Assembly (NCBI RefSeq): GCF_000372725.1
Contig: NW_005202113.1
Span: forward strand, 433,125 to 453,124
Reading direction: 5' to 3'
DNA length: 20,000 bases
From: Emiliania huxleyi CCMP1516
Taxonomy: Eukaryota
Below, piece after piece: positions 2,213 to 20,000 of the stretch. Within the stretch, counting starts at the first letter, position 1. The number at the start of each line of letters is the position of its first letter. The position numbers were made by a program, and so were the translations under genes. Under the pieces are notes generated by a model. That model was not told the origin of the DNA. It saw only the letters and a program-made list of their open reading frames with translations, and did no database searches.

Positions 2213-4151
2213 CCTGAGTCGACTGGGACAGCGAGCTCGTCTCGGAATGGCTGCGACAAAAGAATCCATGCACCTTCTTCCCTTGGGTTGTCCGTTTTCT
2301 TTCTTTCTTTCTTTTCTTTCTTTCTTTTTTTATTGAGAAGGAAATACCTCCTTGCACCTTCTATAGCCTCATCTCACATCTGGCCGGGTGTGGCAAGGTT
2401 GAGTTTCTGTGACTGTGTTTCTATGGGCGTACACCGTTAGTTTATTCCAGCCTGCGCCGTCATCTTCCCTACTCCTGTGGCCCGCCCGCGTCCACTCACA
2501 CCGCGCTGGTGACTGTCGCTGTGGTGTCCTGTCCGAACTGGAACCTTCGATACACACAAATTGTATCATACATACATTTAAACATACGGACTAAGGTAAG
2601 GTCACCGTCATCTACAAGGTGTGGAACGAGGCGAAGAACAGAGATGTCTCTGGGCGAGATGGTCGCTTTGCTGACTGCTCTCGTCAGTGAGCCGGCAGCG
2701 GCAGCGGCAGCGGCGGCAGCCGTGGATTGAGGCCGATCTTGGCAGTAGCTTCGAGTCTGGGCTTCCTCGGCGGGATGAGGGATCCCGATGGCGGCATCGC
2801 TCGACAAACCACATGACATTGAGAACCATCTTTGCGCGCATCACCATCACCATCAGCCATCACGTTTTCACGTTCCTCGAGTCACGTTCCACGACCCGGG
2901 ATGCGGGCTCCGGGGTGGTTTTGCGAGTAGATCATTCTCGTCCGTAAAGCCGTAGGCGTAGCGGGTTGTGGCGTCGAAGAGTAAGGGGGGAGCGAAACAC
3001 CGGAGCTAAGTGTGTGTGTACGGATAGGGCTGTCAAACGTTAAGAGCTGAACAGTGTTGCTAGTGTTAACAGTAACAACAGAACAACAGTGTGGGGCTCC
3101 CCAACAACAGTAGCTAACGTTAGGCCGGCTGAACAACAATACCAACGAGAGCTAGGGAGCGCGAACAACACTTGCGCCTGCCCCAGCCACTAGCAGATAG
3201 CAGATACAGCCCACAGGCCACAGGCCACAGCTCAAAATTTGCTTCGGCTCGCTGCGCTCGCGTGGCTCCGGCGGACGGAACGCCGCCACATCGTACCCGC
3301 TCAGAGACCCGAGATCATAGTCTGAGGTTATCCTAAAAGTTCGGCCGATTTGGGTCAAAACGCTAAAAGCACGGCTAGCCGTAGATTTGGGGCAAAACGA
3401 CAAAAGTGGGCCCGCCCGGGGCAAAATGGTAAAAGTCGCGCCGCCGCAGGCGCGCGAAAATTTTGGACATTATACTCTCCGGCGAATGCCACTAGCCCCC
3501 CCAAGCCGGCAGATGGTACCTCGGCAGCTGCAACCAAGCCAGCGGGTGAAGTGTTGTGGGAGGATGCGTCCTTATGTGTCACAAACTTGTAGCGCTACAT
3601 GTTTGGACACACACCGGCGGGCGCTTTCGAGGGGCGAGCGGCAGCATTTTTTTAGCCATAGTGTGCGGGAACTACTTTGCCGTTGCGGGACGATAGGGAT
3701 AGCTAGTACTTGCTGCACCCGCGGCGCGCAGCGCCGAAGAAATTTTTGAAACATGCTAAAAGTTGGGCGCTCCGAGACGACCAAAGTGGTAAAAGTCGCA
3801 CTCTCCCCTGACCCAATCAAAAGCGTAAAAGCACCCGAGGCTCCAGCAGAAACCTAACCCTCAGACTATGCCCGAGATGATCTCCGATGGCTCCCGGTAA
3901 CCGTCTACGAGGGGCGGGCGTGGAGCAAGTGGGTCCGCCCTTGCACGAGAGCACGACGGTGGTACGAGAAACCCCAACCTAGAGCACTCGAGCTGTGATG
4001 CGGCTCAGTCCACGATCACGAGCTGATCGTCCTCGGCCACGAGTTCACAATGAAGTGCACAATGAACTCGGCGATCCTCTGCACGTTGCGCAGAAAGGCT
4101 GTGCGGTCCACGCGGCGGCAAACAATGTAATCTCTGATGCTCTGCACATGC

Positions 4152-4645
4152 TCATTCGTCAATGCCCTCCTCACACTCGGCAATTGCCGCATCTGCAGCC
4201 CCCTGCTCCATATCCCGATACTTCTTGAGTGCTCGGTTTAGCGGCGCCTTGCCGCCGCACTTCTCGTACAGCTCCTCGAGCTCGACCCAGCGTGTGTCGG
4301 TGAAGCCTGTGTCGTGCTGGTCCTCTTTGAAAGTGCCGCGCGTGAGGTAACAAATTGTCTTGTCGGCAGCAGCCAGCTTATTGCGCCGCTTCTTTGCAAT
4401 GAGCTGCTCGGGATCACAGCAGCCGAGCAGCGCGGCATGCCGAGCACCGCCTCAATCTTGTAGCAGAATGTCGGCGCGACTGCGTCGTCCGCACCGCCGT
4501 CTGCAAGCCGCGCGCGGCGCTGCGCCGCAGCCACCTTCTGGCACGCGTAGCGGCAACAGATGGTGCGGTGTGCGTACTTGAGCACCCGGTGCGCACCGCA
4601 GTTGGCGCAGGAGCCCCTTGGGCGGGAGTAGGGCGTGCGCGGCAT
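4152..4645 (-). pseudogene. Frameshifted transposon cargo ORF: Cys cluster (possible Zn finger) plus chromodomain-like region
   Basis: MPRTPYSRPRGSCANCG...TICCRYACQK...FCYKIEAVLG, then in a shifted frame CCDPEQLIAKKRRNKLAAADKTICYLTRGTFKEDQHDTGFTDTRWVELEELYEKCGGKAPLNRALKKYRD...GIDE*. The frameshift coincides with an 8-bp direct repeat (4422-4429 and 4439-4446); removing 17 nt restores the frame. Confidence 0.5.
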
Positions 4646-4658
4646 GTGTGGCGCGGCG

Positions 4659-4712
4659 CGGGTAAAACCCGGGTATACCTGAAACGTTTCGGGTATACCC
4701 GGGTTTTACCCG
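4659..4712. repeat. 54-bp near-perfect palindrome
   Basis: CGGGTAAAACCCGGGTATACCTGAAAC|GTTTCGGGTATACCCGGGTTTTACCCG, with a single mismatch (4680/4691). Confidence 0.9.
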
Positions 4713-5000
4713 GGGTGCTCAACGTTAACAACAGGAGCGGCGCTTGAACAACAGTAACAATAACAGAAGCGGGGCCCGGCCAACAATAAACAACGTTGGT
4801 GATTTCAGCCAACAGCAACACTAGCGCAACTGTTAGGCCCCAAATTAACGTTTGACAGCCCTATGTACGGAACCTGTGCATCGTCAAAGCGCCTGGATTT
4901 TTATTCGTGTCGTAAGGGGCGTTACCTGATACCTCGTGTCGTAGGCGCGTCTCCACGTTACCTTCTTTCTACGGAGGACCCCAGTGCAGTCACTGTGTGA

Positions 5001-8000
5001 TCAGAGCTCCTCCTTCCCCCCGCCACCCGCGGCGCCTCCCTCTGCGCCCGCGCCGCACCCCTCCTGCTGGAACATGTCCGCGAGGGCCGAGAGCCCCTGG
5101 CCCTGGCCGCTCGCCGACGCGGCGTACCAGAGGTTGACCGCGAGGTTTCGCCTCGCGCCCCGGGAGGTCGAAATGACGGCGTGGTGCCAGCCGCGCGGCA
5201 GGAAGAGTGCGTCGCCCCTCCGCACCTCGCAGAGGGAGGGCGACGCCCTTGCGACGGCGGGGTGCGTGCTCGCCACGTCGTCCGCAAAGACGTTGAGCTT
5301 GGCGACGTTGTGCCGCACCTGAATGAATGAGGGACTCCATTTACACAGTCATGCATTCGTCCATAGCTTGGCGACGTTGTGCCGCACCTTGTCGAAAGTG
5401 GTCTCGTTGGTCACGCCGCCGGCCTACGCGCTGTGAGCACACCAACCTCGGGGCGGGAAGAGCGGCCTCGTGCGGCGTATTCAGAGCACCGCGTGAGCAC
5501 GAGGGTACGAATACAGCGAATACAGCGGAAGACGTGTCCTCACGAGCGCTAGTTGGAGTACAAGAATACGTGTCCTTCCGCGTCTAGTGCCGCCGGCCGC
5601 GAGGTCGAAGCCGTGCCTATACCCGTTGTTTAATTAGTGAGTCACGCAGTTCGATTAGTTCGACCTCGCCGCGAGGTCGAAGCCGTGCCTCCGGATGGTG
5701 GCGGCGCCGTAGTAGAGGTGCTTCGCGTCGGCGGGCGGGAAGAGCAGCGCGCGCTTCGTGCCGCGGAGCTGGTAGAGTAGGATATCGTACAGGTCAGAGT
5801 ATTATTAGTACTATTATCATCATTACTATCTCCACCTGGTAGAGCAGGTTGTCGTACAGGTCAAAGTGGAGCCCGTTCTTCATGAGCGCGCCGCCCACCC
5901 ACAAGTTGGCGATGGAGAGCGACGAGGGCGGCAGCGCGGTAGAGAGGCAGACCCCGCGCAGCAGCGGCGGGAGGCGGAGCAGGTTGAGCTGCGCGAGGTA
6001 CGCCTCGAATGGGACCGCCTCCGCCGCCTACAGACACCAGGGCGGGCTCCAAACGGGCCCCGCAAGGGCGCGATCGAGGCAAACCCGCCTCCGCCGCCTC
6101 GCCAGTCAGCTTGAGGAAGTCGGCCACGTACACGGAGCAGCGCGCCGGCTCCACGAGCGCGTCGGCGGCGGCGTCGAGGGTGGGGTGGGTGGTGGTGGGC
6201 ATCGCCTAGAAGGCTCCTAGAAGGCTCCTAGAAAGGCTCCTAGAAGGCTCCTAGAGGGGGGGGGGGTTGGGCATCGCCATCATCTCGACGAGCGTCTCGC
6301 CCACCGCGGCTGCGATGGCGGCGTCGTCCCACGCGTTCGCCGCCCAGCCGGCGGTCGCGTTCCGCAGCAGCAGAGGCCCGCCGGTGAGCAGCGCCTGAGG
6401 AAGGTTCCGGGGAAGCTCGGGGAAGGGTCCGAGCAGGTGCCAACGCCCCGAACACGAGCACGGCGCCTCTGGCCCCGCCGCCAGCACAGCCTCGAGCGTC
6501 GACTCGGAGCAGCGCGGCGCCTCCTCGAAGATGGGCGGGTACCTCGCCTCCGCACCCACCTCCACACCCACCTCCGCACCCGCCCCCGCCAGCCTCGACT
6601 CGCCGAGCCTTGCGGAGTCTCCTCCGCCGCCGCCTCCGCCGCCGCCGCCGCCTCCGCCTCCGCCGCCGCCGCCTCCGCCTCCGCCGCCGCCGCCGCCGCC
6701 GCCTCCTCCGCCGCCCACCTCGGCCGCCCTGCCCGCCGACTTGCGCTGCGCTAGCCAGTCGCGCAGCGCAGTCGCGGAGCTGACCGCCGCCTAGAAGGTT
6801 CCTAGACGGCTCCTGGAAGGTCCTGGAAGGCTCCTAGAGGGCGGAGCTGACCGCCGCCTCGTCCGCCGTGGAGGCGGCGGCGAAGGCCTCCGCGGCGGCG
6901 GCGGGGTCGGAGGCCTTGAGCGCCGAGGCGAGGCCCGCCAGCGCGTTCGCTTGCTTCGGGTTGTGCTGCAGCGCCTCGCGAAAGGCGGCGGCGGCGGCGG
7001 CGGTGTCGCCGGCAGAGCGCAGGGAGAAGCCGAGGGCGGCGTGCGTGGCCTGCAGGGAGACGCCCATGACATGTCCGGGACATGTCCGCACCTCAGCCAT
7101 GTCTCTGCGCACGTCGCCCGCCGCGTCGGTCGGGTCGAGGGCGAGGGCCGCTCGCAGGGCCGCCGCCGCCTCGCCGTGCCTGCCGGACACGCCAAAGACA
7201 CGTCACGTCTTCGAGCTCCGCCGCCGCCACCGCCGCGTCGGTCGGTTTTTGGTCTGTCGTCTGTCGGTGTCTGTCGGTGTGTCTGTCGGTGTGGCGGTCT
7301 GTCGGTCTCTAAGAGACCCAAGGAGCAAGAGACGCTGGCCCGGCGCCTGCTCGCCGCATCGAGCGCGAGGCCGAGGTTGGAGTGGGCCGCCGCCCGCCGC
7401 GGCGAGAGCGCGATGGTCGCCTGGTAGGCCGCAACCGCCTCCTCGCTCCTCCCGAGGGAGGCGAGCGCGTTGGCGCGGTTGTACGTCGCGTCCGCGTCCG
7501 CCTAGTACCATGCCTCCAGAGTATCGAATCCAGTGTGGGTTCAGGTCTTCCGGTGGTGGTGTCCGCGTCGGCCGGGTTGAGCTCGAGCGCCGCGGCAAAG
7601 GCGTCGGCGGCGCCGGCGTGGTCGCCGCCCATCGCGAGCGCGTTGCCTCGCCCAAAGTGCGACTCGAAGTCGCGCGGGTTTAGCCTGACGGCGGCGGCAA
7701 ACGCGTCCGCCGCCTCGGCGTGCCTCGCGGCCTTGTGCAGAGCAACGCCGCGGTTGTGGTGCGCGTCGGCGTTGGCCGGGTAAGCCTTCAGCACGCGGTC
7801 AAACATGCCGAGCGCCTCGTCGAGCCGCCCGAGGCCCTGCAGCGAGAGGCCGAGGTTGGTCGCCACCGCGAGCTGCTGCGCAGCGGGCACGGCGCCGGTG
7901 GCAATCGCAGCCTCGTAGGACTCGATCGCCTCGCTCCATTTTCCAGCCGCCTGGAAGCTCGAGCCGCGCTGCGCGAGAGAGACCCACTCGGGCGCAGTCT

Positions 8001-8076
8001 GCTGCGCAGCGGCGGAAGCGAGAATCGAAAACAGGAGGGCGCCGGAGCAGCCCGCGGGCCACATGTCGACTCTCAT
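5001..8076 (-). CDS. Signal peptide + TPR repeats + JmjC (cupin_8/FIH-like) 2-oxoglutarate/Fe(II) hydroxylase with C-terminal KEEL; multi-exon (about 12)
   Basis: N-terminus MRVDMWPAGCSGALLFSILASAAAQ (start 8076 or 8064). Many TPR motifs (e.g. NADAHHNRGVALHKAARHAEAADAFAAAVRLNP). JmjC core NLWVGGALMKNGLHFDLYDNLLYQ|LRGTKRALLFPP ... GDALFLPRGWHHAV...NLAVNLWY with the HxD...H triad intact. Ends GGKEEL* (TGA 5001-5003). Structure around the poly-Gly tract (6600-6718) is uncertain. Confidence 0.82.
6619..6716. repeat. (CCG/CCT)n trinucleotide tract; poly-Gly in frame on the - strand, or intronic
   Basis: About 33 consecutive CCN triplets. Confidence 0.9.
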
Positions 8077-8261: not shown

Positions 8262-10646
8262 ATGCTCTTCGGCCTGCTCGCCTTGACGCCGGCACCGACC
8301 GGCGGGCGAGCACCCGCCGCCCGCGCCTCGGCGTCGGCCGCATCGCCCGGCGCGGCGACGGCGTCGGCGGAGCCGCACGCGGCGGCGGGCGGCAGCGCCC
8401 TCGAGCGCGAGGACGGCACGGTGTGGGAGCTGATCGAGGCGGAGGGCCGCCGGCAGCGCGATGGCCTCGAGCTCATCGCGAGCGAGAACTTTGCGTCTGC
8501 CGCCGTCCGCGAGGCGCTCGGGTCTGTGATGACGAACAAGTACTCCGAGGGGCTGCCGGGCGCGCGGTACTATGGCGGCAACGAGCACGTGGACGCGCTC
8601 GAGCGGCTCTGCCAGGCGCGCGCGCTCGAGCTCTTCGGGCTCGACCCCGACGAGTGGGGCGTCAACGTGCAGCCCTACTCCGGCTCGCCCGCAAACTTTG
8701 CCGCCTTCACGGCGCTGCTCGAGCCGCACGACCGAATCATGGGGCTTGACCTGCCGTCGGGGGGGCACTTGACGCACGGGTACTACAACGAGCGCCGGCG
8801 CGTCTCGGCAACCTCCATCTACTTCGAGTCGCTCCCGTACGAGGCGAGAGCGCGCGCACCCGCCACCCTGCACCGCCCCGCCCGGAATCTGTCCCACATC
8901 TGCCCCTATCTGCCCCTACCTGCCCCCAGGTGTCGGCCGAGACTGGCCTGATCGACTACGACGGCCTCGAAGAGCGCGCTCGGCTCTTCCGCCCAAAGCT
9001 GCTCATCGCAGGCGAGGGAGGGAGAGGGAGGGATAAGGGAGAGGGAGAGGGAGAGGGAGAGGGAGAGGGAGAGGGAGAGGGAGAGGGAGAGGGAGGGAGG
9101 GGGAGGGAGAGGGAGGGAGAGGGAGGGAGGGAGAGGGAGGGAGGCCGATCTGCCGCCGCGCCCGCGCGCAGGGGCGTCGGCCTACCCTCGGGACTGGGAC
9201 TACGCGCGGATGAGGCGGATCGCCGACTCGGTCGGCGCGCTGCTGATGAACGACATGGCGCACGTCTCGGGCGGAGAGGCACGTCCACGACACGTCCGCG
9301 ACACGTCCGCGACACGTCCACGACATGTCCACAGGCGCACATCTCGGGCCTCGTCGCGGCGGAGCAAGCCGCCGACCCGTTCGAGCACTGCGACGTGGTC
9401 ACGTCGACCACGCACAAGTCGCTACGCGGGCCGCGCGCCGGCGTCATCTTTTACCGCAAGCGGTTCGAGAGCGCGGTCAACTTCGCCGTCTTCCCGTGCC
9501 TGCAGGCCCCTCCCCCTCCCTCCCTCCCTCCCTCCCTCCCTCCCTCCCTCCCTCCCTCTCAACGTCGCCGTCTCCGCGTGCCTGCAGGGAGGGCCGCACA
9601 ACCACCAGATCGCGGCGCTGGCCGTCGCGTTGCGAGAGGCTCGCCCATCTCTCCCCCATCTCTCCCCATCTCACACACCACTGTCTTGAATCGGGAGGCG
9701 TCTTCTTCTCTCCCAACCAGCGCTCGAGAGGACACGCACTCAAACTTCTTCCCGCCGTAAACCGCGGTCTAACTACTCATGAGTAGGCGGGGCAGCCAGC
9801 TTTTCCGAGATCACCCGAGATCACCCGACATCACCCGACATCACCCGACATCACCCGACGTTGTAGGCGCAGCAGCCAGCCTTCCGCGAGTACATCCGGC
9901 GTGTCAAGGCGAACGCGAAGGCGCTCGCCGCCGCGCTCGTGGCGAGAGGCTACACCATCGTCACGGGCGGTACCGACAACCACCTCGTGCTCTGGGACTT
10001 GCGGCCGCAGCGCCTGACCGGCTCGAAGCTCGAGAAGCTCGCCGAGGCCTTCCGCCCTCCTCCCTCCGCCCTCCTCCCTCGCCTTCCGCCCTCCACCCAC
10101 TCCTTCCGCCCTCCGCCCTCTTCCTCCTCCTCCTCCCTCTTCCCTCCTCCCTCTTCCCTTCTCCCTCCGCCCTCCACCCTCCTCCCTCCTCCTCCCTCCG
10201 CCCTCTTTTCTCCGCCCTCTGCCCTCCGCCCTCCGCCCTCCTCCCTCTGCCCTCTGCGAGAAGGTTCCGAGAAGGGTCCGAGGCGGGCGCTACCACGCCC
10301 CGCCCGAGAGAGAACCTTCTCGGAACCTTCTCGGAACCTGCTCGGAGCCTTCCTGCAGGCGGTCGGCATCACGCTCAACAAGAACGCGGTGCGCGGCGAC
10401 GTCTCCGCCGCCACGCCCGGCGGGGTTCGCATCGGCACGCCGGCGCTGACAACGCGCGGTTTCGGCGAGGCCGATTTCGTGAGGGTGGCGGAGTACTTGC
10501 ACGAGGCCGTCGAGCTGGCGCTTGCGCTGCAGCAGCGCTCCGGAACAAAGCTCAAGGACTTCGTCGCGGAGATGGAGGCGGAGCCCGCCGTCGCCGACTT
10601 GCGAGAGCGGGTGCGCGCGTTCGCGACCGAGTTCCCGATGCCCTGA
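8262..10646 (+). CDS. SHMT: Serine hydroxymethyltransferase, 7 exons, with an N-terminal targeting extension
   Basis: Motifs [58 protein letters not shown]-lysine motif [41 protein letters not shown]. Exons about 8262-8843, 8930-9011, 9172-9257, 9335-9505, 9588-9638, 9867-10046, 10359-10646. All six introns are GC-AG. Confidence 0.97.
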
Positions 10647-14413: not shown

Positions 14414-16775
14414 ATGCACGGGCTGATCCATGTGGTCCTGAAGGGCTTCGTGGTGGAGCGGTTCGGCGCGGAGAAGTGGTCTGACATCCTGCGAATTGCC
14501 AATGTCGAGGACGAGGCGAGCATCATACGCATGGAGCAGTACGATGACGCGCTGAGCCTGGCGGTGGTCGGGATCGCCCTGGAGGCGATAGAGGAGGTGG
14601 CATCGGTTATGGGCGTTTCTTTTTCGAAGAATCGCTTACTATTACTAGGTGCTCGACGTGACCAAGGTGGATGCGCTGGAGCTGATCGGGGGCTATTTTG
14701 TGGAATTCGTTGTCAGAGCGGGGTACAGCAAGATGCTCCGCTCCCTCGGAACGACGCTGGACGAGTTTCTGCTGAACCTGAACCAGCTCCACCACAACCT
14801 CGAGCGGGAGTTCCGGACGGCAGTGTTCCCGAGTTTCGAGATTTCCCGGGTCAAGACCAACCATGACCACGATCAGGAGGAGGAGGAGGAGTTCCTCCTG
14901 CGCTACTCCTCCATGCGCGCGGGGCTGGGGCTGGCCCCGCTGGCAAAGGGCGTGGTGCAAAAGGTGGCGTCGGTACTCTTCGACATGCAGATCGAGATCG
15001 AGGAGCTCAGCCGCGTGGAGTCGGAGCAGGTGGAGAGGAGGCTCGAGCAGCCGCTCGAGAGCTCCCTGGCGACACAGCGGGCGCCGGCGGAGGACGAGGA
15101 TGCGGACGGCGGCGACGATGATGACGCCGCCGCCATCTCTCAGGGCGTGAGCTGGCTCATCAGGATCCCGCGGCCGCCTTCGCCCATAACGCCGCACTCG
15201 CCACCGCCAGTCGGGAATGCCCCCCAGCAAGCCGGCGCGGCGACGGGTCGTGCCGCCGAAGCATCATCATCGTCACCGTCCCTGTTCTCGTCCTTCGACC
15301 TGCACCAGGCGCTCTGCTCCGTGGGCAGGTGCTGCACTTCGGCTGCCTCCGCGGTGTGCTGCACTGTGGACTGTTCCGCCGAGTGTGCTGCGCCGCCGAG
15401 TGCGCAGGCCGCTCTCGACGACGTCGACGCCGCCATCTTCACCGCCCGCGGGGTGGAGATCGCGGCAGGGGAGCGGCTGTTTGTCGCCGCGGAGCTTTTC
15501 CGGGGCGTCCTCGCCTCCCAGGTGGCCGGTGCGTGGAGCGAGCCGGAGGCGCTCGAGCGGGCGGGCGACTTCTGGTCGAAGGACTTGCTGGCAAGTGCGG
15601 CGGCGGCGAGCAGGCGGCAGCGGGTGCTCGAGCGGGCAGGGGAGCAGCCGCCGCAGCCAACGGAGGACGAGGGGGGCGGCGGGTGCTACTACGCGTGGTC
15701 GAGAGAGGTCCTACTGCCACGCTGCGGCGGGCGCTACTACCACGCTGCGGCGGCGGAGGAGTGGATCCCGGGGTGGCAGCGAGTGCTCTTCGTCTCTCAC
15801 GCCTGGTCGCCCCCGCCTGGCTGGGCGGAGCTGATGGGGGCCCAGTGCCGGTACGGCGACGTGAAGGCGGCAGAGGTGTGCATCGCCGCGAAGGATCTGG
15901 CCGGCCAGGCGAGCGGTAGGGGGGCGGCCGCTCGGGCGGACGCCGTGGCCGCTGGCGACGCCGTGCGTTGGGGGGAGGTGCGGCTCTGGATCGACAAGTG
16001 CTGCGTGCAGCAGGGTGACGCGGTGCAGGTCGCCACCTGCGTGGAGCTCTTCGAGGAGTTCATCCAACTCAGCGACGGCGTGCTGGTCTTGCCCGCCTGG
16101 AACTACTTCGAGCGGCTCTGGTGCGTCTACGAGTGGGCATGCTTCACCATGTTCCACGAGCCCGAGGATGTGGTGCTGTGCGCCGACGCTTTCTTGCGGC
16201 CGAAGTCCCTGCCGCTGTTCCTCAAGTCCATCAGGAACTTCTCGCTGGATCGCTGCCAGTGCTTCCATGCCCCAGACCGGGAGATCCTCCGCCGGAAGGT
16301 GGACCAGTACTACACCTCTGTCCGGGCGTTCGAGACCTTCGTGCGCTTCACCGCCGTTGCGTTCTTCGGCCGGTGCATGACCCACCGGGCCGGCCGCGCC
16401 TCCGCGCAGCTGGCGCCGTGGGCCGACCTCGCAGAGGAGTTCGGCTTCGCCGCTCTGGCGAGGGAGCTCCGCACAGCCGACCAGAGCTCCAAGCGGTGGC
16501 GCCGGGAGGCCTACCGAAGCGCCAGCGGGAGCCATTGGGAGGAGGCGGCGGGGGGCAAGAAGCTTCCGAACAGGGAGCCAGATCAGCCAACGGCAGCGCG
16601 GGCCTCCTCCTCGGGCGTGCAGGCGCTGATCTGCGAGAAATCGGACGCTTGGTTTTCGCGGCACATCGCGCCGCTGGTGGAGGTGGCCCGCAACGAAGCG
16701 GCGAATCCGGACGCGCTGCGGCTTGTGGCCCGGGGCCGATGCCAGGGCCGGCGTCGTCTCTTTTGTTACGCGTGA
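14414..16775 (+). CDS. H-NOX (HNOB haem NO-binding) domain fused to a TIR/HET-like domain, about 765 aa, 2 exons
   Basis: Exon 1 14414-14584, GC-AG intron 14585-14648, exon 2 14649-16775. H-NOX: MHGLIHVVLKGFVVERFGAEKW...YDD...G..FVEF...GYSKMLRSLG..L.EFLLNLNQLHHNL...FPSF...YSSMR..LAPLAKGVV. C-terminal part: LFVSHAW...LWIDKCCVQQ...FIQLSDGVLVL...YFERLWCVYEW...FSLDRCQCF..PDREIL. Confidence 0.88.
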
Positions 16776-17285: not shown

Positions 17286-20000
17286 ATGCTCACACGTCGG
17301 GCCCTGCTGCGGCGCTCCTTACAAGTACAGCGCGCACTGCTTCGGTCGGCGCGGATTCCTCCTGCCAGCCTGAGGCGCGGCGTCGTCCTGCTACCGCGCC
17401 GGCCGCCGCTGCTGCTTCACTCGCGTGCGCTCGCTTCCAAGTCGAAGTCTGAGAAGGCACCTCCACCGGCGCGGTGGTCGCCGCAGTGGGTGTGGGACCA
17501 CGCAAAGGAGATGGCGTCGCACTACTGGCACGGGAGCAAGCTGCTCGCCGCCGACACGCGGATCGCCTCGCAGCTGCTGGTGAAGATGATGCGCGGTCGC
17601 GTCCTCTCGCGGCGCGAGCACAGCCTGCTGGTGCGGGTGCTGGGCGATCTGCTGCGCGTCATCCCGCTCGCCTTCTTCCTCCTCGTGCCGATGATGGAGT
17701 TTGCGCTGCCGTTTGCGATCCGGCTCTTCCCAAACCTGCTGCCGTCCACGTTCGAGGAGAAGCACCAGATCGAAGAGAAGCGGATCAAGCTCCTCAAGGT
17801 GCGCGCGAGGGCGGCGCCGGCGGCACCTTGAGGGCGGCGGGGCGGCCGGCGGTGGCAGCTCCCACGGCGTCCCGATCCACCGACGTCCTCGGCTCACGGC
17901 GCCGGCGCTCGCCTCTGCGCAGGTGCGTCTTGAGGTGGCCAAGGTGCTGGAGCACACTCTGGAGGAGCGTGCGAAGGAGCTGAACAGGGCGACCAAGGCG
18001 AAGGCGGAGGCGGGCGGCGGCGACGCGGAGGAGCCGTACCCGCGCGACCTGTTTAGCAAGTTCATGCGACGGATGAGGGAGGGTGCGCGCAGCCGAGAGA
18101 CAGCCGGGATGTGCGCGAGGTACGGCGAGAGATAGGGAGAGGAGAGGAGGGCAGGGGGCGCGTCAGGCCGGCAGTGCTGGCGCAGGCCATCGCCGTGGGG
18201 AGGCGGGGGTCCTAGGCAGGCTCCTCGAGACTTCACGCGGGGTCTGGGGGGAGTGCAGTCCAGAGCAGCGGGAGATGTGGGGAGATGTGGGGAGATGTGG
18301 GGAGATGTGGGGAGTGCAGTCCAGAGCAGCGGCGATGCGAGTGGCCCTTGTGGTTGCGACTCGCAGACTCTCGTCACCTGCTGGGGAGATCTGCGGAGAT
18401 AGCGGAGATCTGGGAAGATCTGGGGAGAGATGCTTTTCTCTTCTCGCACCTGCTGCTGGCGCAGGCGAGCGTCTGTCGCGGGAGGAGACGCTGCAGGTCA
18501 TGTCGCACTTCAAGCATGTCGACTCACCAGACGCGCTCAACAGGCGAGACACGCCGCCCCGCCCCATCTCTCCCCACATCTCCCCGCATCTCCCCGCATC
18601 TCCCCCAATCTCCCCGACAGGCAGCAGCTCACCCTGCTCTGCAACTTCCTCGGCATGCCTTCCTTCGGCCCCGACCCGGTCCTCCGCTTCCAGCTCCGCA
18701 CCAAGCTGCGCCAGCTCCGCAACGACGACAAGGAGAGCATGTGGGAGGGCGTCGGCCACATCTTCCCACATCTCGCCACATCTCGCCACATCTCGCCACA
18801 TCTCGCCACATCTCGCCACATCTCGCCACATCTCGCCACATCTCGCCACATCTCGCCACATCTCGCCACATCTCGCCACATCTCCCTCCGCAGGAGATCA
18901 TGTGGGAGGGCGTCGGCTCGCTCACCCGAGACGAGCTCCTCGCGGCCATGCGCGCGAGAGGGCTGCCGAGCGCGGGGCTCGGCCAGGCGCAGATGGCGGC
19001 TGCGCTGCAGGAGTGGCTGCAGCTGTCGCAGAACCGCGAGATCCCGTCCGTGTTGCTGCTGCTCTCCAACGCGCTCCGCTTCGCGCGCGTGCGCGGCCGT
19101 AGAAGCGGAGCGCGTACTCTAGCGGAGTGCGTCCTCTTGCCGTCCACCCAGCGCTCGAGAGGACGCGCACACCGGCGCCGCACACGTGTGCGCCTCCCGC
19201 CTACTCGCGCGGTGCGTGAGAGAGGACACTGCACCCTCCTCCCCTGAGGCTGTTGGCGTGAGCACCACGCAGGTGCGCGACTACCAGCAAGAGGCCCAGG
19301 CGGAGAGGGAGGCGGCGGCGGCGTCGAAGGTGCTCGACGACGAGGCCGCGCAGGTCACATCTCTCCCCATCTCTCCCCATCTCTCCCCATCTCTCCCCAT
19401 CTCTCTCCCCACCTCTCCCGCCACCAGGTCGCGCTCTCGTCGATGCGCGAGGAGGTGATCGACTCGGCGGGCAGCGGTGCGGCCAAGGGGGCGGCGACCA
19501 CCACCAAGGAGGCGCTGGCGTCGCTCGAGCGCGAGGCGGAGCTGGTCGAGGAGGAGAGATGGGGAGAGATGGGGAGGGATGGGGAGGTGTGAGGAGGTCT
19601 AGGCGGAGCTGGTCGAGGAGGAGAGGCAGCTCAAGCGCGCAGGCGTCGACAAGGTCCCGTCGAGCGTGCGGCCGGCGGAGGCTGTGACGTGGAGCGGGGG
19701 CGGGAGCGGCGACAAGGCGGCGGCGGAGAAGGCGTCGCCCGCGGCTGCCGACGGCGCGGCGACGGCGGAGGAGGTGGAGGAGGAGGAGGCGACGCGGCTG
19801 TCGCGGGAGCAGGTGCGCGACATCGCGGCGGCGGTGGAGACGCTGTCCGCGACGAGCGCGCTGGAGGGCGAGACGACGGAGTGGCAGGAGCGAAGTCACA
19901 CTACTCAGCACTACTCAGCACGCCATTGCTAATCAGGCGAGAAGAAGGAGTGGCAGAAGCTCGAGGCGGAGAGGCTGGAGAGCGCGACCGAGATCGAGGA
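17286..20000 (+). CDS. LETM1: LETM1/MDM38 mitochondrial inner-membrane protein, at least 9 exons, truncated by the window end
   Basis: Arg/Leu-rich presequence MLTRRALLRRSL. Core HYWHGSKLLAADTRIAS...LSRREHSLLVRVLGDLLRVIPLAFFLLVPMMEFALPFAIRLFPNLLPSTF; LRFQLRTKLRQLRNDDK|EIMWEGVGSLTRDELLAAMRARG; LQEWLQLSQNREIPSVLLLLS. Exons about 17286-17798, 17923-18082, 18465-18543, 18621-18732, 18894-19088, 19273-19353, 19428-19535, 19603-19867, 19937->20000. Confidence 0.95.
18771..18880. repeat. Intronic 10-bp tandem repeat (TCTCGCCACA)x11
   Basis: Eleven perfect copies inside LETM1 intron 18733-18893. Confidence 0.95.

What the first reader, a model, noticed from the sequence alone, without database searches (positions are those of the whole stretch)
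5296..7572. TPR-JmjC introns carry copies of the adjacent exon at their boundaries
Seen: most introns here start with a copy of the next exon's start or end with a copy of the previous exon's end. Examples: AGCTTGGCGACGTTGTGCCGCACCT at 5296-5320 and 5365-5389 (25 bp perfect); GCCGCGAGGTCGAAGCCGTGCCT at 5596-5618 and 5668-5690; a degenerate 28-bp pair near 5769-5796 and 5836-5863; GCGGAGCTGACCGCCGCCT at 6774-6792 and 6841-6859; shorter pairs near 6016/6087, 6196/6268 and 7490/7561. Established: duplication of an AG|GY proto-splice site and staggered double-strand-break repair are proposed but rarely observed intron-gain routes. Inference: ongoing intron creation (or boundary homogenisation) by duplication plus filler DNA. 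This would also explain the GC donors, since the donor is simply the copied exon start.
Basis: partly seen in the sequence, partly recalled or inferred. Interest (0 to 1): 0.72.

Follow-up and report, generated by a model that had tools for sequence, protein, structure and literature searches.

The report
Introns that copy their neighbouring exon
About half of the introns examined in this marine alga (likely the coccolithophore Emiliania huxleyi) begin or end with a 9-32-base copy of the neighbouring exon, likely the scar of a DNA-repair insertion that made or remade the intron, so this genome could be a large natural test of how introns arise without jumping genes.

Summary
Confirmed and wider than reported. 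All seven repeat pairs are exact at the stated places. RNA contigs skip the predicted introns; DNA contigs of other samples keep the repeats, so they are no assembly artefact. 8 of 11 introns of the TPR-cupin gene and 13 of 25 in three window genes carry an in-register exon copy, against 3 of 600 mismatched pairs; 5 of 7 filler-defined sites in other genes do too. Copies are one-sided (11 at the intron start, 2 at the end), and the rest of the intron is repeat-family or patchwork filler; one filler opens with an 11-bp fold-back. Orthologues lack introns at these positions, while two SHMT introns at positions shared with vertebrates have no copy. One DNA run lacks one 72-nt intron exactly, most likely a derived loss between the repeats. 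Best reading: insertions with long target duplication at staggered breaks, kept when spliceable (0.5). Ongoing gain is not shown, an AG|GY site is not required, and GC donors also occur without copies. Not found in 10 literature searches; the scan noted single similar introns in other marine microbes.

The parts
5001..8064 (-). TPR + Cupin_8 (JmjC-like) gene, 12 exons, 696 aa
   Evidence: ORF; Pfam TPR and Cupin_8; orthologue alignment
7502..7572 (-). Intron 1, 71 nt, GC-AG; first 12 nt copy next exon start (1 mismatch); filler belongs to a family also found at the 3' end of an intron in L001
7180..7346 (-). Intron 2, 167 nt, GC-AG, no edge copy; holds an internal 16-nt copy (7230-7245) of the exon 3 end/donor (7118-7133)
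   Evidence: RNA 58-nt exon
7050..7121 (-). Intron 3, 72 nt, GC-AG, no copy
6791..6857 (-). Intron 4, 67 nt, GC-AG; 17-nt exact start copy (6841-6857 of 6774-6790) + 11-nt-unit satellite filler
6395..6466 (-). Intron 5, 72 nt, GC-AG; only 6 nt in register (below threshold)
   Evidence: RNA joint
6206..6277 (-). Intron 6, 72 nt, GC-AG; 10-nt start copy + satellite filler
   Evidence: RNA joint; allele in L012
6028..6097 (-). Intron 7, 70 nt, GC-AG; 13-nt start copy
   Evidence: RNA joint; two GC-AG registers possible
5769..5835 (-). Intron 8, 67 nt, GT-AG; last 32 nt copy the previous exon end (4 mismatches)
   Evidence: RNA joint
5617..5688 (-). Intron/insert 9, 72 nt, GC-AG; 21-nt start copy; absent in DNA run X7; removed from mRNA together with intron 10
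5659..5681 (.). 11-bp fold-back palindrome joining the copy to the filler of intron 9
5598..5616 (-). 19-nt micro-exon, wholly copied inside intron 9 (the mRNA is the same whichever copy is used)
5424..5597 (-). Intron 10, 174 nt, GC-AG; 9-nt start copy; filler of a multi-copy intron family
5319..5387 (-). Intron 11, 69 nt, GT-AG; 23-nt exact start copy; single-copy filler
   Evidence: RNA joint
9258..9334 (+). SHMT intron 3; 15-nt start copy (1 mismatch); position not shared with 33 homologues
   Evidence: ORF-defined, no RNA laid
9506..9587 (+). SHMT intron 4; last 29 nt copy the previous exon end (3 mismatches)
   Evidence: no RNA laid
9639..9866 (+). SHMT intron 5; stacked: a first unit, then a second (about 9787-9866) that starts with a degenerate copy of the next exon
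   Evidence: sequence
18733..18893 (+). LETM1-like intron; 24-nt start copy (1 mismatch) with GA donor
   Evidence: ORF-defined
19536..19602 (+). LETM1-like intron; 23-nt exact start copy
   Evidence: ORF-defined
19868..19936 (+). LETM1-like intron; 24-nt start copy (3 mismatches)
   Evidence: donor chosen by ORF near the window end, weakest model

Best explanation
These spliced introns begin or end with a copy of 9-32 bases of the neighbouring exon, and each was likely born as a DNA-repair insertion at a staggered break that duplicated those bases on both sides of a filler. The steps: (1, inferred) a staggered break or paired nicks in coding DNA; (2, inferred) fill-in leaves a target duplication of variable length; (3, partly shown) 32-62 nt, sometimes more, of filler lies between the copies, taken from repeat families of other introns in the same sense or made on the spot (fold-back in intron 9); (4, inferred) only insertions of about 60 nt or more survive, and only if the copy starts with G[C/T/A] and the filler ends in AG, or the copy ends in CAG and the filler starts with G[C/T]; this would put one edge of the copy exactly on a splice site, and the organism's acceptance of bare GC donors makes it frequent; (5, shown) the mRNA is unchanged; (6, shown once each way) the repeats make units unstable: exact loss in run X7, tandem doubling in L004 and L011; otherwise copies decay by point mutation.
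For: 13 of 25 window introns against 3 of 600 mismatched pairs; 5 of 14 outside the focal gene, p=3e-5. 6 of 8 filler-defined acceptors in metagenome contigs (5 of 7 without the orthologue L012) against 2 of 56. 36 of 79 non-satellite exact repeats of 12 nt or more in 41.9 kb are spaced 60-79 nt (some are pieces of one event). 11 of 13 copy-bearing window introns are 67-82 nt. P0012 (contigs 5.5-10.2 kb) and P0014 (10.8 kb) are unbroken ORFs across all 11 positions; P0039/P0041 read into an intron elsewhere but cross positions 8-11 unbroken; P0036 breaks about 4 nt from position 7. SHMT positions 194 and 221 (no copy) are read-through break points in vertebrate and other homologues (P0147, P0122, P0096); position 250 (copy) in 0 of 33. 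Fillers of introns 1 and 10 align with other introns in the same sense and are multi-copy by contig depth. The 11-bp fold-back at the copy end of intron 9 is the only such stem in 7925 positions; Pol theta makes such stem-loop insertions (PMC11292364, abstract).
Against: No empty ancestral allele was seen: the one absence lies on a haplotype identical to the window over about 1290 nt, while more distant haplotypes carry the intron. No excess microhomology at the copy/filler joint (mean 1.4 against 1.16, P=0.30, 10 events). Fold-back in only 1 of 13, found post hoc. The filler of intron 11 (perfect, hence young, copy) shows single-copy depth, so no donor is evident. Stacked units at one junction (SHMT 5, L001, L008) show that some events occur at existing introns. 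The outgroups are distant (38-63% identity) and two of them are intron-free in this gene, so positions could be older than the copies. Only 2 old introns were tested.
Confidence: 0.5

Rival explanations
1. Turnover at existing introns: a short tandem duplication spans an existing acceptor (intron 3' end plus exon start); the older upstream unit is later lost exactly, leaving a 'new' intron at an old position.
For: Stacked units with shared 3' ends of 4-11 nt in L001 and SHMT intron 5, identical tandem units in L004 and L011; exact loss of a unit in X7; a like event made an intron in potato (PMC4974935, abstract).
Against: Needs an exact loss at each of 11 unstacked sites; positions not shared with tested orthologues; stacked units often have different fillers (L008, SHMT 5).
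Confidence: 0.18
2. Abortive repair on spliced mRNA or cDNA: a break in an existing intron is extended across the exon-exon junction for 9-32 nt and rejoined to the intron remainder, rewriting one end (and turning donors into whatever the next exon starts with).
For: Explains without selection why the copy starts exactly at the junction, is one-sided and needs no match on the exon side; fits single-copy AT-rich fillers (introns 8, 11).
Against: Both testable old introns lack copies (n=2, weak); no allele with the same 3' part and another 5' end in 7 DNA sources; it does not make stacked units or create positions.
Confidence: 0.13
3. Retroposition: a LINE-type enzyme primes on the 3' AG end of excised intron RNA or satellite transcripts and inserts 5'-truncated copies with variable target duplications.
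For: Variable 9-27-nt duplications, fillers that end at an acceptor and start at different repeat phases, same sense as the gene, no microhomology.
Against: No element or enzyme was looked for; end-copy introns, fold-back and single-copy fillers are not explained; ending at AG was imposed by my search pattern for the satellite class.
Confidence: 0.12
4. The copies are kept or homogenised for a splicing function rather than being birth scars.
For: Several copies are perfect although shared by strains that differ by up to about 1% nearby.
Against: Copies range from perfect to 4 mismatches in 32; strain SNPs fall inside copies (5377, 6852); 12 of 25 introns have none; direct repeats do not pair (established knowledge).
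Confidence: 0.05
5. Assembly artefact or chance echo of the splice consensus in GC-rich DNA.
For: GC 64-75% and low-complexity coding DNA.
Against: Contigs of six DNA runs and L012 carry the repeats; mismatched-pair controls keep consensus and composition and do not exceed score 10-11.
Confidence: 0.01

Closest known systems
[quoted passage not shown]
   Same: New introns flanked by direct repeats, read as filler at staggered breaks.
   Different: There: short repeats on 43% of gained introns, 5 events counted as identified, and in Drosophila no excess over old introns at 5 bp or more. Here: 9-32 nt, one edge on the splice site, about half of the introns examined, far above control.
Introners with target-site duplications (PMC9860276, passages; PMC12130899, passages; Amoebophrya PMC7789003, passages)
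   Same: One splice site comes from the duplication, the other from the insert, in both orientations; mRNA unchanged; some fillers are multi-copy.
   Different: Introner duplications are 3-9 bp and family-specific, elements near-identical end to end, often with inverted termini. Here the duplication varies 9-32 nt and fillers are satellites, several families or unique. 'Emiliania' and 'haptophyte' do not occur in the main text of the two surveys.
[quoted passage not shown]
   Same: Intron made partly of duplicated exon; stacked units resemble the potato case.
   Different: The whole intron is not duplicated exon: copies are one-sided and most of the intron is filler; no AG|GY is needed inside the copy.
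GC-AG-rich introns of Emiliania huxleyi (PMC4028052, passages)
   Same: Donors 56% GC, 40% GT, 4% GA there; 18 GC, 6 GT, 1 GA of 25 here.
   Different: The 12 of 16 passages shown ascribe GC donors to genome GC content and do not mention junction repeats.

Membership tests
Spliceosomal introns | Removed from mRNA, reading frame restored | tested here: met
   6 RNA joints covering 7 introns plus a 58-nt exon; intact ORF and orthologue alignment. Intron 9 is not shown to be spliced on its own.
Spliceosomal introns | G[T/C]-AG ends in a register that gives the mRNA | tested here: met
   One such register in 10 of 11 introns, two in intron 7
Introners (TE-derived introns) | Families of near-identical introns end to end | tested here: not met
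   Shared satellites or cores only; 5' parts are locus-specific, lengths differ
Introners (TE-derived introns) | Short target duplication of fixed length (3-9 bp) | tested here: not met
   9-32 nt, variable, also within one filler family
Introners (TE-derived introns) | Terminal inverted repeats | tested here: inconclusive
   Four introns folded show no end-to-end pairing; no systematic search; many Introners lack them
Introners (TE-derived introns) | One splice site co-opted from the duplication | tested here: met
   11 donors and 2 acceptors lie in the copy
Intron gain by break repair | Direct repeats at junctions above background | tested here: met
Intron gain by break repair | Ancestral empty allele or outgroup | tested here: inconclusive
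   Distant orthologues empty; within-species absence looks derived; no close outgroup reachable
Intron gain by break repair | Repair signatures (microhomology, templated filler) | tested here: inconclusive
   Microhomology not enriched; fold-back in 1 of 13
Tandem duplication of an AG|GY segment | Intron wholly made of duplicated exon, both sites from the copy | tested here: not met
   One-sided copies with 32-62 nt or more of filler
Non-LTR retroposition | Active element and endonuclease target consensus | not testable with these tools
   No genome held

The most novel reading that the evidence does not exclude
This alga runs a transposase-free intron factory: error-prone repair inserts filler between long target duplications, a GC-tolerant spliceosome turns these scars into introns, and the same repeats later delete or double them, so that a large share (about half in this sample) of its introns are recent products of one birth-and-death cycle whose age can be read from the copies.
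Probability: 0.4. Interest if true: 0.9.

Novelty: new variant of a known kind. Interest (0 to 1): 0.77.

Why it matters
How introns arise outside transposon bursts is an open question; a 2012 review counted 5 identified gains by break repair (PMC3443670). If about half of this alga's introns carry dated duplication scars, it offers a very large set of events in a cultured species with many sequenced strains, enough to tell gain, replacement and RNA-templated rewriting apart. It also matters in practice: the repeats make splice registers ambiguous by up to 25 nt and can mislead annotation and intron-retention counts.

Tried and rejected
No whole genome is held, so no genome-wide count. Viral contigs: three filler patterns and one orthologue search found nothing. 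Genome contigs gave one hit (L013), a satellite in AT-rich DNA without an exon copy in view, not used. Microhomology at the copy/filler joint: not enriched. Local templating of fillers: 1 of 13 significant. Rfam: 3 weak matches below gathering score, none on a filler. Allele pairs L004/L006, L004/L007, L003/L010, L011/L005: no intron presence/absence. X9 has a half-depth contig ending at 5697, which would fit heterozygosity for the intron 9 absence, but depth sums are ambiguous; not counted. L005, L006, L007, L010 were dropped from counts as alleles, and L003 or L010 used once. L008 and L009 are the 2 misses (by eye both have degenerate copies; not counted). No RNA was laid on SHMT or LETM1-like genes. 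The gene at 830-2212 was not modelled. L001's ten junctions were picked by eye, one wrongly, and are used only as examples. Literature: 10 searches found no description of these repeats; passages of two recent genome papers and an EST paper do not mention them. The 2013 genome paper, the 2009 Daphnia paper and the 2016 Introner paper were not held; no supplements were read, and they may bear on novelty.

Full report
Organism. No genome is held. The window is 56-75% GC, is found in marine metagenomes and cultures, its nearest named orthologue is from Prymnesium polylepis, and its donor spectrum (18 GC, 6 GT, 1 GA of 25) matches that published for Emiliania huxleyi (PMC4028052, passages). I therefore infer the Emiliania/Gephyrocapsa huxleyi complex; no tool named it.

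Observation. The gene runs on the minus strand from 8064 to 5001 in 12 exons and gives 696 aa without a stop, with TPR repeats and a Cupin_8 domain. The spliced protein aligns to up to nine orthologues with at most three-residue gaps near the 11 junctions. RNA contigs of X11 and X12 (one study) skip 69, 246, 67, 70, 72 and 72 nt at the modelled places, and DNA runs X1 and X7 show none of these joints (15 of 37 joints shown). The 246-nt skip equals introns 9 and 10 together; because intron 9 copies the whole 19-nt exon between them, the mRNA cannot tell two introns from one. The repeats leave up to 26 equivalent registers, of which one (two for intron 7) reads G[C/T]-AG.

Not chance, not artefact. 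Pairing each donor with its own acceptor gives scores far above 110 mismatched pairs (p=1e-6). Over the TPR-cupin, SHMT and LETM1-like genes 13 of 25 introns score 10 or more, against 3 of 600 mismatched pairs; 8 of 11, 2 of 6 and 3 of 8 by gene. Contigs of X1, X7, X8, X9, X10, X3 and L012 carry the repeats wherever they bridge them; X1 may be the window's own source, and X1, X8, X9 and X10 are one study.

Beyond the window. A scan for one filler gave 12 metagenome contigs, 8 distinct sites. At 6 of 8 the exon start is copied 59-74 nt upstream (10-27 nt), against 2 of 56 mismatched pairs; one of the six is the orthologue of intron 6. In 41.9 kb of distinct DNA, 36 of 79 non-satellite exact repeats are spaced 60-79 nt. 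The contigs were chosen for a filler, so this is not an unbiased genome fraction.

Anatomy. Eleven window introns start with the next exon's first 9-24 nt and match only 1-2 nt on the exon side; two end with the previous exon's last 29-32 nt. At four sites in other genes no base matches on the exon side. So one splice site lies in the copy and the other in the filler. Fillers are 10-11-nt satellites, members of multi-copy intron families in the same sense (intron 1 with an L001 intron; intron 10 with three others), or single-copy by depth (intron 11). The filler of intron 9 starts with an 11-bp fold-back of the copy's end, unique among 7925 positions but seen in 1 of 13 introns. Microhomology at the copy/filler joint is not above chance. 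Some junctions hold stacked units, with different fillers (SHMT intron 5, L001, L008) or near-identical ones (L004, L011).

Age of positions. In SHMT, homologues including a bat, a wrasse and a lizard read into introns at the positions of introns 1 and 2, which have no copy; none of 33 breaks at the position of copy-bearing intron 3. This fits gain, but the outgroups are distant and only two old introns were tested.

Polymorphism. X7 joins 5595 to 5668 in a 685-nt contig at depth 109 that keeps introns 7 and 8, so it lacks intron 9 exactly. Six other DNA sources carry it. X7 has no difference from the window over 4900-5504 and 5476-6232, whereas X8, X9, X10, X3 and L012 differ at 2-7 places in 4933-5572; the absence is thus most likely a recent deletion between the 23-nt repeats, not the ancestral state (inference; recombination could mislead). 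No other presence/absence was seen.

Mechanism. I favour insertion at staggered breaks with long target duplication and captured or patchwork filler, filtered by splicing (0.5). Shown: duplication plus filler, splicing, lineage-restricted positions in the tested relatives, one fold-back, loss and doubling of units. Inferred: the break, the enzyme, the selection that fixes the register. Rivals are turnover at existing acceptors (0.18), abortive repair on spliced RNA or cDNA (0.13) and retroposition of intron RNA (0.12); they give the same end state and need close outgroups to separate. GC donors are as common without a copy (8 of 12) as with one (9 of 11), so copying uses GC tolerance rather than explains it.

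Comparison. It works like break-repair gain (PMC3443670, passages) and shares the Introner logic of co-opting one site from the duplication (PMC9860276, passages), but fails the Introner tests of fixed short duplication and end-to-end families, and the AG|GY duplication test. Ten searches found no report of these repeats; key subscription papers and all supplements were not seen. Earlier notes of this scan describe single exon-duplication-plus-filler candidate introns in other marine microbes and one protist where edge repeats were only consensus; none concerns this DNA.

Verdict. Real, spliced, widespread in this genome; a new variant of a known route, at a scale that would make intron birth by repair testable. 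Interest 0.77.

Noticed in passing
window 3024-4864: A 1.84-kb element bounded by 20-nt perfect inverted repeats that include TA at both outer ends; looks like a DNA transposon or its relic.
   Followed up: partly
window 18733-18893: ORF-defined intron of the LETM1-like gene with a GA donor supplied by a 24-nt exon copy; not RNA-tested.
   Followed up: partly
window 14414-16770: Gene starting with an HNOB domain that seems to have a single short AT-rich intron, unlike its intron-rich neighbours; read from sequence only.
   Followed up: no
window 5424-5597, 9639-9786, 19089-19272; L001 2714-2858: Four long introns share a core of about 30 nt in the same sense; multi-copy by depth; no Rfam match. 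Could be a separate intron-resident element.
   Followed up: partly
L001 2317-2666: Array of about ten 32-nt units inside an intron; window intron 1 holds one unit with the same flanks.
   Followed up: partly
window 7771-7778 in run X7: 5-nt gap with two substitutions in exon 1: frameshift allele or misaligned in-frame change.
   Followed up: no
protein P0036: An orthologue's read-through tail (KPSPEP) suggests telomere-like repeats in its intron (inferred from the peptide), echoing earlier notes on telomere-repeat introns.
   Followed up: no
window 18248-18332: 24-nt direct repeat around a 10-nt satellite, spaced 61 nt, wholly inside an intron: the same duplication-plus-filler form away from a splice site, a possible unselected example.
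   Followed up: no
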